NCBI RefSeq assembly: GCF_006345805.1
Contig: NC_043002.1
Span: forward strand, 83,514,001-83,578,000
Length of the DNA stretch: 64,000 nt
Source: Octopus sinensis
Lineage: Eukaryota
Direction of reading: 5' to 3'
This document shows positions 15,105 through 19,695 of the stretch, piece by piece. The position numbers and the translations under genes were made by a program. The notes below the pieces were generated by a model. It did not search any database. It was not told the DNA's origin and saw nothing but the letters and a program-made list of their open reading frames with translations. Position 1 is the stretch's first letter, and every line of letters starts with the position of its first letter.

Positions 15105-15490
15105 CTAAATTTTTTTTTCAGAATGAGATAAAAACCCAAGGCTGTGAAGATTTTAGAACATTTATAAATAGGTCTTACAGCTGTTTCCAGGATATTTATT
15201 ATATCCCTTCATCAGAGACAGTGTGAGAAAATGGTTAAGCAATAGTTATTCTAGATAAGATAAGAAATAGAGAGTGAAGTGGAGAAATGAAAACAGATGT
15301 GAGATATGCAGGGATATTGCATTTGTAGATCCATTATTTAGGCAGAATGGTATACATATAAGATTCCAATAGTATTTAAAATTTGTCATTCCAAGTACAG
15401 AGTTTGTACACAGTGCTATTGAATCGAGGGTTTTATTTAAAGTGACCTAAAAGTAGGGAGTGTATTTGTAAGGTCAAATCGAAAAAAAAT
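15105..15490 (-). mobile_element. Penelope-like element remnant between (TA)n tracts
   Basis: About 390 bp of unique sequence bounded by TA microsatellites and containing the hammerhead at 15172-15219. Confidence 0.55.
15172..15219 (-). ncRNA. Minimal hammerhead ribozyme motif (Penelope/retrozyme type), intact core
   Basis: Minus strand: GTCT-CTGATGA-A-GGGATAT-aataa-ATATCCT-G-GAA-ACAGCTGT-A^AGAC. Stem I GTCT/AGAC, core CUGAUGA and GAAA, palindromic stem III ACAGCTGT, GUA cleavage triplet. Confidence 0.85.
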
Positions 15491-16249
15491 TATATATATA
15501 TATATATATACATACATATATATATGTGACCGCATCAGTGGTCCTTTGCTTTCTTCTTTCTTTTAACTAAACATAGACGCACATAGAGATATACACATGC
15601 ACAAATGAAGACACATACAATAGAAATACAAAATGGCTGACGGTTAGTAAGGAGAGACAAAAATAAGAAAGAAAAAAGCAAAGGATCACTGATGCGGTGA
15701 CAGGAGTGTGACAAAAGAACTCTGGCCAAAAGAAGATTAAGATTAATGTAAAAAATAAATAACACTGAAGCAAAGTAACACCAAATATATAGTGCATGTG
15801 TTTTTATTGGCTAAACTGGCAAAATGACCATTCCGAAATACAACAATATATATGTATGTTTGTATATGTATATGTTTGTCTTTGTCATTGTCCCCCACAA
15901 ACGCTTGACAGCTAGTGTTAGTTTGTTTATATCCCTGTACCATAACAGACTGGATTATGAAAATCTATGTGGTGCTCTAAACATAACAGTAGCAGCCATG
16001 CAGTCATAGATCTCCTTGTCAACTCATGACCAATTAAAGCCACTTCCTAAACTCTAGCTCTGTGCAAGCATTCTGAGTGTCCAAGAAGTTGCTTTGTATG
16101 AGTTTGATTTGAGTGGATAAAGTGTCAGATGGCTTTGAGCCCACTTTTCGTGCAGTTAGCTACAAAATTAGCGACACAACAGAGGGTGGTGATACGACCA
16201 TAAGCAAACAACACTTTAAGTTTTTATACAAGTTTACCTTCTTCTAGAA

Positions 16250-17760: not shown

Positions 17761-18483
17761 ACTCATAATAGAAGATTGAAATGTTTTATTTTTGTAGTGC
17801 AAAACTTAGTATTTCTTGTGTTGAAATAAGGATGTAGTGTACCAAGTTACTTTATTACTAGAGTGAATACTTTACAATATATAAGTTTGTAATCCTAAAT
17901 TTGTGTTCAGATTCCACCAAATTTACTTTAATCTACTTTACTTTCATCTTACCAAGTTGTAGGGCTGTCCTGGTCTCGACAAGGTCTTTTGTTTTTCCTT
18001 GTTAAATGAAAAACCAGCTGTTGCCTATGCTTGTAAAGTCTTCCTGTCTCCTGCCACATATGATATTCAGGAGAATGGGAAGGGTCAACAAAGCTTGGAA
18101 CCAGTTTTACTGCAGGCATTACTCTCAGAACATGGTGAGCCAGAATGGATGACATAAGGCATCACACTTGACTCTCTGAGTATTCTGACATTCCATTGCT
18201 CTGAATTGGTGGTGCCTAGCTCATTAAATTTGCAAGGATGAGACTAGAGAGTTAACTTTGGCAGGATTTGAACTTACAACACAGAGAGACAGAACAAATA
18301 ACTAAAGCATTCTAGCACAGTAAAGATTTTTGCCAACATAACATGGCAGTCCTGGTTTAGGACGAACGTTGCTGTAATTTAGCCCCAGGTGACATCGTCT
18401 CCAGCTGGCTATATGACATGATCTGTGTCCTTATATTTTTGAACAAGGGAATCTAGCACCCCCACTCAGCCCAAAACAATATC

Positions 18484-18524
18484 TGTGTATCGTGATTTCC
18501 GGGTTATTTCCCTTCATCAGCACA
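18484..18524 (-). ncRNA. Minimal hammerhead ribozyme motif, intact core, in the left arm of the fold-back element
   Basis: Minus strand: TGTG-CTGATGA-A-GGG-aaataa-CCC-G-GAA-ATCACGAT-A^CACA. Stem I TGTG/CACA, near-palindromic stem III, AUA triplet. Confidence 0.8.
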
Positions 18525-18647
18525 TAATAATTGTTCGGCTATGCAACACAATCTGTGTCCTTATATTTTCAAACAAGGGAATCTAGCACCCCCATTATAT
18601 ATTTCGAATGGGAATTTGGCAGCGCCACCTCTAGCCGAACAATTATC

Positions 18648-18690
18648 CTGTGCTGATAAAAGGAAATAACCCAGAAATCACGATACACAG
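18648..18690 (+). ncRNA. Hammerhead ribozyme motif with mutated core (CTGATAA, G8>A), in the right arm of the fold-back element
   Basis: CTGTG-CTGATAA-AAGG-aaataa-CCCA-GAA-ATCACGAT-A-CACAG; inverted paralog of 18484-18524. Confidence 0.7.
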
Positions 18691-19695
18691 ATATTGTTTT
18701 GGGCTGAGTTGGGGTGCTGGATTCCCTTGTTCGAAAATATAAAGACATAGATCATGTCATATAGCTAGCTGGAGATGATGTCTCCTGGGGCTAAGTTACA
18801 GCAACATTTGTCCTAAACCAGGACTGCCATGTTATGTTGGCAAAAATCTTTACTCCAAAGTACTGTTGTGGAATATCTCTTGTTGTGAGATTTAAAAATA
18901 GTAATTTTCTAACATTCTAACACACTTCTAACTGGACCAAACCACCATCTTACTATTGGTAATGTACTGAAATTTAAAATTGATTGCCCCTTCTTCAGTA
19001 TAAAATATCCTTGTGCACATCATCATCATAATTTAACATCTGTTTTCATGTTGGCATGGGTTGGATGGCTTGATAGGAGCTGGTGCGGCCGAGTTTCCAG
19101 TGTCTGTTTTGACTTGGCTTCTAAGGCTGGATGCCCTTCCTAACACTAACCACCAGGATGTTTTGTTTTTGTATACCGTCATCAGTGCTTTCTTCATGGC
19201 AGCAGTAGCAGTGCACAGTTAAAGTAATCAATGTCTCTTATCAGAAATAGAACACTGGATTCAGTACTTTTCAATATTTTGTTTATGGTCCTGCTTGGGT
19301 TGACCTTTGTCTTTTTATCTACCAGATGACAAAATAAGTAAATCAATACTAGCCAGTCCAATGAGGGGGCTTTTGTATTACAAATAGCAATTATATCAAC
19401 CCCCTTTAAATCATATCCCACTGCCTTAACAAAACAAAAAAAAAAGATACATATATAATGTAATTCATATTTGCTGTGTCTGGAAAAAAAATCCCAGGGA
19501 TTTATGGCTGCAACATATTTGGTCCCAAACATATTCAGTCAGGGAGGACCAATGCCAAAATGATGAATAAATAAACTGGAGAGATTTAATTTCTTTTACA
19601 AAATTTGACTTTGTGGCTAGTTAAAAGATGTCAAAATTGCCAAATGGTTTCTTTGGGATTCTGTGATTATTATTATTATTATTATTATTTTATTA

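What the first reader, a model, noticed from the sequence alone, without database searches (positions are those of the whole stretch)
18319..18854. Fold-back element that looks like a MITE but has a hammerhead ribozyme in each 223-bp arm
Seen: long inverted arms with no TSD and no recognisable DNA-transposon terminus. Each arm carries a hammerhead pointing outward. A 130-bp-period direct repeat runs from the left arm into the spacer (18421 versus 18551). Established: Penelope-like elements often leave partial-tandem and inverted pseudo-LTRs. Inference: this is either an inverted pLTR pair or a self-contained non-autonomous ribozyme element. A transcript of either strand would contain one hammerhead and could fold into a 220-bp dsRNA that masks it, a likely ADAR substrate in a lineage known for heavy A-to-I editing.
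Basis: partly seen in the sequence, partly recalled or inferred. Interest (0 to 1): 0.8.

Follow-up and report, generated by a model that had tools for sequence, protein, structure and literature searches.

The report
Head-to-head Penelope-type ribozyme repeat insertion
This fold-back is one insertion of an abundant 353-base, non-coding repeat that carries a hammerhead-ribozyme motif; its two mirror-image arms were likely written at the moment of insertion by a Penelope-like reverse transcriptase copying the repeat's RNA twice, once from each cut strand of the target, so it is a known kind of element that offers an unusually large sample for testing how such elements insert.

Summary
The inverted arms (223 bp, 93%) and the 130-bp-period repeat are real. 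Two details are wrong. The element ends at 18912, not 18854, and with that end it is flanked by a 12-bp target-site duplication (11/12). Only the left hammerhead has an intact core; the right has G8>A. The locus is one copy of a 353-bp tandem-unit, non-coding family (at least 1274 exact 30-mer hits). 65 of 83 unselected loci are head-to-head, with fixed outer ends and variable inner junctions, so the fold-back is an insertion product, not a unit that moves. In 52 of 57 classed pairs, one arm ends about 173 nt and the other about 228 nt after the ribozyme cleavage site; 56 of 73 such insertions have a TSD, mostly 12-13 bp (control 0.65). This is the published Penelope architecture (inverted pseudo-LTR, one-sided tail, TSD) in a non-autonomous, retrozyme-type family. 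The best mechanism is priming of both target strands at two fixed RNA start sites, then microhomology joining of the two cDNAs. No ADAR footprint, circular RNA or autonomous partner was found. Verdict: new member of a known kind; the short-end/long-end pairing is the part worth following.

The parts
18308..18319 (.). Left copy of the target-site duplication (last base shared with the arm)
   Evidence: 11 of 12 match to 18913-18924; family-wide TSD test
18319..18541 (-). Left, short-ended arm: unit positions about c170-173 back through the cleavage site to c300 (c1 = first base after the hammerhead cleavage site)
   Evidence: 96.4% to the family's column majority
18483..18525 (-). Type I hammerhead motif with intact core; core starts at 18520, predicted cleavage between 18488 and 18487; short near-palindromic stem III
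   Evidence: cleavage activity not tested
18537..18594 (-). Templated junction insert (unit c81 to c24), in the orientation of the left arm; this is the 130-bp-period direct repeat. It begins at a 5-nt microhomology with the arm's inner end, a likely template jump
18596..18912 (+). Right, long-ended arm: unit c264 through the cleavage site to c228
   Evidence: 93.7% to column majority
18648..18690 (+). Second hammerhead motif with G8>A (18658) and a stem II change (18661); predicted inactive
   Evidence: that G8 changes abolish cleavage is stated for a PLE hammerhead in PMC11167929 (for G8C)
18855..18912 (+).
18913..18924 (.). Right copy of the target-site duplication

Best explanation
The locus is a single insertion of a 353-bp, non-coding, hammerhead-bearing tandem repeat, and its fold-back was likely made during insertion by a borrowed Penelope-like reverse transcriptase-endonuclease that would nick both target strands about 12-13 bp apart and prime one cDNA from each nick. 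Shown: the repeat family, two fixed outer ends (about c173 and c228), their one-short-one-long pairing, 12-13 bp TSDs, variable inner junctions with microhomology or inserts. Inferred: one nick primes at RNA position about c228 and the other at about c173, on an RNA that runs through the cleavage site (uncleaved tandem or circular). Each cDNA stops at a variable point, and the two 3' ends are joined through short homologies, at this locus after a template jump that produced the 130-bp repeat. The mobilising enzyme was not identified. After insertion the copy decayed neutrally (CpG loss, G8>A), and the fold-back likely has no function of its own.
For: Family size: 1274 exact 30-mer hits, control 0; 274 exact hammerhead-motif hits; period 353 in tandem copies. 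Head-to-head in 65 of 83 unselected loci; 147 of 159 segment 3' ends fall in two classes; pairs are 52 long+short, 4 long+long, 1 short+short, 8 with an unclassed end (52 of 57 vs one half, p=6e-11). TSD score >=8 in 56 of 73, shuffled control mean 0.65, max 2; modal length 12-13. TSD overlaps the element end by >=2 nt in 22 of 39 (right, null 24%) and 12 of 39 (left, null 13%), as target priming predicts. Inner ends are uncorrelated (rho 0.12, 54 pairs), and the short-ended arm reaches further upstream in 39 of 54, which snap-back of the long cDNA cannot give. Junctions: 51 of 108 rows carry inserts; >=3 nt microhomology in 32 of the other 57 vs 6% null. The two arms of an insertion share non-majority letters more than expected (35 vs 15.6, non-CpG, 60 pairs). 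Two sister families keep the 352-353 period and ends at c173/c234 and c169/c232. In vitro, a PLE protein cuts and extends both strands, starts at two internal RNA sites that bound the tail, and is predicted to be a dimer (PMC11167929).
Against: No autonomous partner was found: no DNA similarity between the unit and the termini of the RT+GIY-YIG elements in 35 fetched loci, apart from independent sister-family insertions, and no PLE frame within 10 kb on the inner side of 20 solo arms apart from one 42-aa hit. The three autonomous families whose ends I read finish in (TA)n, whereas this family inserts in ordinary AT-rich DNA. PMC11167929 saw no difference in start site between the two strands in vitro, which does not predict the pairing. 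The tail (about 55 nt) is longer than the 30-40 nt in print. At this locus the long arm reaches further upstream than the short arm, so snap-back is not excluded here. The microhomology walk tolerates mismatches and overstates the excess. 18 of the 83 loci have no adjacent inverted partner. The 83 loci come from the first 100 of 1274 hits (contigs C1 and C2 only).
Confidence: 0.75

Rival explanations
1. Same family and enzyme class, but the inverted arm arises by self-priming: one cDNA (or an antisense RNA template, as proposed for rotifer Penelope elements) folds back and copies itself, and the hairpin is then integrated or resolved.
For: Published proposal, based on palindromes at inverted junctions (PMC3846280, passages). 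Nine junction rows have overlaps of 8-47 nt, several at natural hairpins. Arms share variants. The window's own geometry allows it.
Against: Snap-back of the long-ended cDNA requires the long arm to reach further upstream; this holds in only 14 of 54 pairs. A short-start cDNA cannot supply the tail. Microhomology with the target at both outer ends points to priming at both.
Confidence: 0.12
2. The repeat is mobilised by a non-Penelope reverse transcriptase, for example a LINE protein doing twin priming, and the likeness to Penelope structure is convergent.
For: No autonomous PLE partner found; TSD length and target type differ from the autonomous PLE families read here.
Against: LINE twin priming (recalled, no call) gives non-overlapping inversions with a random second start and a poly(A) or repeat tail. 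Here the arms overlap, both starts are fixed and internal, there is no poly(A), and a type I hammerhead is present. An autonomous RT+GIY-YIG element in this genome (L148) is itself head-to-head with a shorter and a longer 3' end.
Confidence: 0.08
3. The fold-back is a MITE-like or self-contained ribozyme element that moves as a 536-bp unit.
For: Long inverted arms; four other loci align over most of the query; one locus holds an inverted unit twice side by side (L058).
Against: Those four loci have different inner ends. Junctions differ between insertions, the two ends are not mirror images (tail), and tandem head-to-tail copies exist. Only 4 of 54 pairs reach past the hammerhead in both arms.
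Confidence: 0.02
4. The structure is an assembly artefact or a later inversion-duplication of a single copy.
For: No listed read or contig spans the whole locus.
Against: The arms differ at 16 sites; there is a TSD; the architecture is the rule in the family; one contig of an independent assembly runs from the left flank into the arm with no difference (17900-18348; that run may be the source sample).
Confidence: 0.03

Closest known systems
Inverted pseudo-LTR insertions of endonuclease-bearing Penelope-like elements (PMC3846280, PMC8557442)
   Same: Head-to-head inverted 5'-truncated copy, tail on one end only, partial tandems, flanking TSD, hammerhead in the repeat.
   Different: No ORF; the whole element is the 353-bp repeat; tail about 55 nt rather than 30-40; TSD mostly 12-13 bp rather than the 8-10 bp cases described in the rotifer; no partner identified.
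Metazoan non-LTR retrozymes (PMC7229834; bioRxiv 10.64898/2026.07.22.740005)
   Same: Non-coding low-GC tandem unit with a type I hammerhead; size matches the 350-390 bp mussel repeats; unit folds better than shuffles (z -4.85); co-exists with autonomous PLEs.
   Different: Most insertions here are short head-to-head pairs rather than tandem arrays. The word 'inverted' occurs 0 times in PMC7229834 and once in the preprint, in a passage not shown. Circular RNA and self-cleavage are not shown here.
Minimal and small-helix-III type I hammerheads of metazoan PLEs (PMC4209133)
   Same: Extra base before stem II, G-C closing pair, short palindromic helix III suited to dimer folding; that paper already notes pairs of such motifs 100-700 bp apart on opposite strands in Schistosoma.
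   Different: Stem II is short (3 bp plus an A.G pair) and stem I extends past an internal loop; not assayed.
Poseidon of Anolis, in vitro (PMC11167929)
   Same: Two internal RT start sites downstream of the hammerhead that bound the tail; both target strands cut and extended; AT-rich targets; uncleaved RNA used as template.
   Different: That work reports no strand preference of start site and no model of inverted insertions in the sections read; here the two ends use different sites in 52 of 57 pairs.
MITEs
   Same: Short, non-coding, inverted arms, high copy number, TSD.
   Different: Asymmetric ends, variable inner junction and length, tandem copies, microhomology at the ends, ribozyme motif.

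Membership tests
Penelope-like element (non-autonomous) | Type I hammerhead motif inside the repeated unit | tested here: met
   Core intact in 58 of 70 arms that span it; 16 core mismatches vs 32 expected; compensatory stem I and II and a palindromic stem III in sister family 2
Penelope-like element (non-autonomous) | Partial-tandem copies and an inverted 5'-truncated copy | tested here: met
Penelope-like element (non-autonomous) | Tail on one end only (two fixed 3' ends) | tested here: met
   147 of 159 ends in two classes; length about 55 nt, longer than the published 30-40
Penelope-like element (non-autonomous) | Target-site duplication around the whole inverted insert | tested here: met
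   56 of 73 vs control 0.65
Penelope-like element (non-autonomous) | Sequence link to an autonomous RT+GIY-YIG element | tested here: inconclusive
   None in 35 GIY-YIG loci (15 from the search, 20 refetched wider; 150 of 5029 candidates were scored) or beside 20 solo arms
Penelope-like element (autonomous) | ORF with RT and GIY-YIG domains | tested here: not met
   No tblastn match of a PLE protein in the window; the unit is 353 bp and tandem copies have nothing between them
Non-LTR retrozyme | Tandem 170-400 bp low-GC non-coding unit with a type I hammerhead | tested here: met
   353-bp period; about 37% GC in non-CpG columns
Non-LTR retrozyme | Accumulates as circular or unit-length RNA | tested here: inconclusive
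   Two RNA-seq runs of one study, about 6% of each read: family reads in both directions equally, no start or end pile-up; library not suited to small circles
Non-LTR retrozyme | Self-cleavage | not testable with these tools
   Needs an in vitro assay; 5' truncations do not pile up at the cleavage site (p=0.72)
MITE | Mirror-image terminal inverted repeats at both ends | tested here: not met
   Ends differ by the tail
MITE | Copies homogeneous in length and inner structure | tested here: not met
   Inner ends vary over hundreds of bases and are uncorrelated

The most novel reading that the evidence does not exclude
Penelope-type insertion is a coordinated double priming event: one asymmetric RNP, probably a protein dimer on one RNA, nicks both strands 12-13 bp apart and assigns one nick to the RNA start site at about c228 and the other to the site at about c173. 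The tail is then simply the distance between the two active sites along the RNA, and the head-to-head inverted repeat is the default product. A ribozyme-only retrozyme RNA carries all the cis signals for this, with the spacing conserved across sister families only about 70-80% alike.
Probability: 0.5. Interest if true: 0.62.

Novelty: new member of a known kind. Interest (0 to 1): 0.4.

Why it matters
How Penelope-like elements make their inverted repeats and one-sided tails is described in print as unresolved (PMC8557442 passages), with self-priming as one proposal (PMC3846280). This family gives over a thousand short, similar-aged insertions whose ends, TSDs and junctions can be counted, and the counts favour priming from both target strands at two paired RNA sites. 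It also ties a retrozyme-type repeat to Penelope by insertion signature rather than by hammerhead similarity alone, and warns that such insertions look like MITEs. The single locus itself is an ordinary decayed copy.

Tried and rejected
Rfam: no hammerhead family up to E=5. Hammerhead cleavage as the 5' end of the RT template: looked plausible in the first loci, but stops in c1-60 (52 of 97 at risk) were no more frequent than in the 60 nt beyond the site (22 of 45), p=0.72, and 41 of 142 arms cross the site. A-to-I footprint in genomic copies: none. The G read at 18658 in nearly all RNA reads is not editing, since contigs of the two non-RNA-labelled runs show it too: it is the family's letter. 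Run search: no RNA holder listed on record. The related stretch beside the PLE frame in L136 looked like a partner's pseudo-LTR but is an independent insertion of sister family 2. Partner search beside 20 solo arms: none. TSD test in sister family 2 is uninformative because all 6 pairs sit in (TA)n; in family 3 only 1 of 5 pairs scored. Family 3 hammerhead comparison yielded only 1 motif. One search used a global alignment that misplaced end bases; its numbers are superseded. Empty orthologous site: not seen among the listed joints. Earlier findings of the scan: nothing returned. Paper searches for a published twin-priming or paired-start model of PLE inversions and for this family in cephalopods listed none by title or abstract; subscription journals and Repbase/Dfam were not searched, and supplements of PMC11167929 were not read and may bear on the pairing.

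Full report
Observation. The inverted arms are at 18319-18541 and 18632-18854, 223 nt, 93% complementary with 16 mismatches; a 58-nt direct repeat lies 130 bp apart. A scan of the whole window for type I hammerhead cores found the left-arm motif on the minus strand (core from 18520) and one unrelated motif at 15215. The right-arm copy fails because it reads CTGATAA, G8>A at 18658. Rfam gave no hammerhead match up to E=5.

The family. A search of the own genome (2.72 Gb) with the locus gave 3428 candidates, 40 scored. An exact 30-mer from the arm occurs 1274 times and the hammerhead motif 274 times, with reversed controls at 0. Tandem copies give a unit of 353 bp with nothing between units. I number the unit from the first base after the predicted cleavage site (c1). 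The unit folds better than shuffles (z -4.85). Copies average 94% identity to the column majority, with heavy CpG decay (CpG columns 72% conserved, others 96%). Public runs of five organism labels hold part of the sequence (only four runs were laid).

True extent of the locus. Mapped on the unit, the window holds a left arm (minus strand, about c170-173 back through the cleavage site to c300), a templated piece c81 to c24 in the same orientation, one extra base, and a right arm (plus strand, c264 to c228) ending at 18912. The stretch 18855-18912 is family sequence found on the right arm only. With this end, 18308-18319 is repeated at 18913-18924 (11 of 12). The 130-bp-period repeat is the templated piece; it starts at a 5-nt match between the arm's inner end and c77-81, which I read as a template jump.

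Architecture across copies. I took the first 100 of the 1274 hits (contigs C1 and C2), merged neighbours, and left out 4 duplicate loci and one locus already held, giving 83 loci not selected for structure. 65 of 83 are head-to-head and one locus had a tail-to-tail contact. Of 159 segment 3' ends, 75 fall near c228, 72 near c173 and 12 elsewhere. Pairs: 52 long+short, 4 long+long, 1 short+short, 8 with an unclassed end; 52 of 57 against one half gives p=6e-11. Among 73 insertions with one short and one long outer end (56 unselected, 17), 56 have a TSD scoring at least 8, against a mean of 0.65 in 20 shuffled pairings; lengths peak at 12-13. In 39 cleanly readable cases the TSD overlaps the element end by at least 2 nt in 22 (right) and 12 (left), against nulls of 24% and 13%. 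Inner ends vary and are uncorrelated (rho 0.12); the short-ended arm reaches further upstream in 39 of 54 pairs and the long-ended in 14; only 4 of 54 pass the hammerhead in both arms. Of 108 junction rows (a few loci counted twice) 51 have inserts, 5 are blunt, and 32 of the 57 without inserts overlap by at least 3 nt against 6% in the null; the walk tolerates mismatches, so the excess is overstated. None of the other insertions mapped repeats the window's junction.

The ribozyme. The core is intact in 58 of 70 arms that span it, with 16 core mismatches against 32 expected from base-matched background; the commonest stem III is a perfect palindrome and most variants are CpG decays. Sister family 2 has different but paired stems I and II and a palindromic stem III. 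This matches the PLE hammerheads with a small palindromic helix III that are proposed to work as dimers (PMC4209133, parts 1-2 of 4 read). 5' truncations do not pile up at the cleavage site (p=0.72) and 41 of 142 arms cross it, so the template was often uncleaved tandem RNA or a circle. Activity is untested.

Sister families and partners. Two related families (about 70% over 255 nt; 81% over 70 nt) have periods of 352-353 and ends at c173/c234 and c169/c232; long+short pairs were seen in 6 of 15 and 5 of 30 loci, most others not being head-to-head under that cruder mapping. The genome holds autonomous RT+GIY-YIG elements with open frames of 775-883 aa, one of them head-to-head with a shorter and a longer end (L148). 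None of those examined shares terminal sequence with the unit, the three families read end in (TA)n, and 10 kb on the inner side of 20 solo arms held no PLE frame beyond one 42-aa hit. The partner is unidentified.

RNA. Two RNA-seq runs of one study from organism label B (about 6% of each read) carry family reads in both directions about equally, deepest where genomic copies are most numerous, with no start or end pile-ups; depth on the unique flanks was zero apart from one bin in one run. This looks like passive transcription of scattered copies and says nothing for or against a small circle. Change classes in those reads are roughly symmetric (A>G 39, T>C 40, G>A 31, C>T 33 places in one run) and confounded by paralogues. 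Genomic copies show no sense-strand A>G excess. If this locus were transcribed it would form a very stable duplex, but that is a prediction only.

Mechanism. A TSD outside two outward-facing 3' ends is what staggered nicks with 12-13 nt 3' overhangs give if each 3' end primes a cDNA (inference). Fixed, paired start sites and end microhomology fit this. Snap-back of the long cDNA fails for 39 of 54 pairs, and a short-start cDNA cannot supply the tail. Shared variants between arms (35 vs 15.6; 4 of 8 at this locus vs 1.1) suggest one source RNA or locus, though later conversion between arms could do the same. The short arm's further reach is explained by its 55-nt head start (median inner ends c22 and c54) and does not by itself show that one RNA was used.

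Comparison with print. Inverted pseudo-LTR, one-sided tail and 8-10 bp TSD are described for rotifer Penelope elements, with self-priming proposed (PMC3846280, passages), and as general PLE features of unexplained origin (PMC8557442, passages; PMC8969392, passages). Hammerhead pairs on opposite strands 100-700 bp apart were noted in Schistosoma (PMC4209133). Mussel retrozymes are 350-390 bp (PMC7229834, passages and one section), and a 2026 preprint argues that animal retrozymes are non-autonomous PLEs (part 1 of 5 and passages). In vitro a PLE protein cuts and extends both strands and starts at two internal sites bounding the tail (PMC11167929, parts 1-2 of 4; supplements not read). Searches listed no paper that states the long/short pairing or describes this family, within an open-access library.

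Verdict. It works like a Penelope insertion and meets the structural tests for a non-autonomous PLE of the retrozyme type; partner, cleavage and circular RNA are open. It is not a MITE and not a mobile fold-back. New member of a known kind, interest 0.4, carried by the countable pairing of start sites rather than by the locus.

Noticed in passing
window 15170-15225, minus strand: A second, unrelated type I hammerhead motif with an 8-bp stem II and a palindromic stem III; probably another ribozyme repeat family.
   Followed up: no
window 15523-15705: A short element with about 45-bp inverted ends next to (TA)n, picked up only as weak plant miRNA-like hairpins; MITE-like.
   Followed up: no
L136:6950-7290 and L153-L167: Younger sister family (95-98% among top copies, 352-bp unit) with the same short end at c173 but inserting into (TA)n microsatellites, like the autonomous PLEs read here.
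   Followed up: partly
L152:1-500 and L198-L227: Older sister family (83-87% to the query copy), 352-353 bp unit, ends at c169 and c232.
   Followed up: partly
L150:6477-7251 and L135:6900-7300: A fourth hammerhead family, not alignable to the others, also head-to-head with ends near c166 and c243.
   Followed up: partly
L135:1674-5374, L141: Young autonomous PLE family (781-aa RT+GIY-YIG frame, about 99% among several copies) preceded by an overlapping 479-aa frame with no Pfam match.
   Followed up: no
L144:5627 and L136: Autonomous PLE family with a hammerhead motif in its 3' region, 166-169 nt before its 3' end, close to the short-end distance of the non-coding families.
   Followed up: partly
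L008:2030-3152: Seven head-to-tail repeats of unit c13-c173 behind a long-ended arm, either repeated re-initiation at the short site or later tandem expansion.
   Followed up: no
L173 and L178: Two unlinked insertions with almost the same inner junction (c36 to c270, 14-16 nt overlap) but short and long arms swapped: junctions recur at internal homologies.
   Followed up: no
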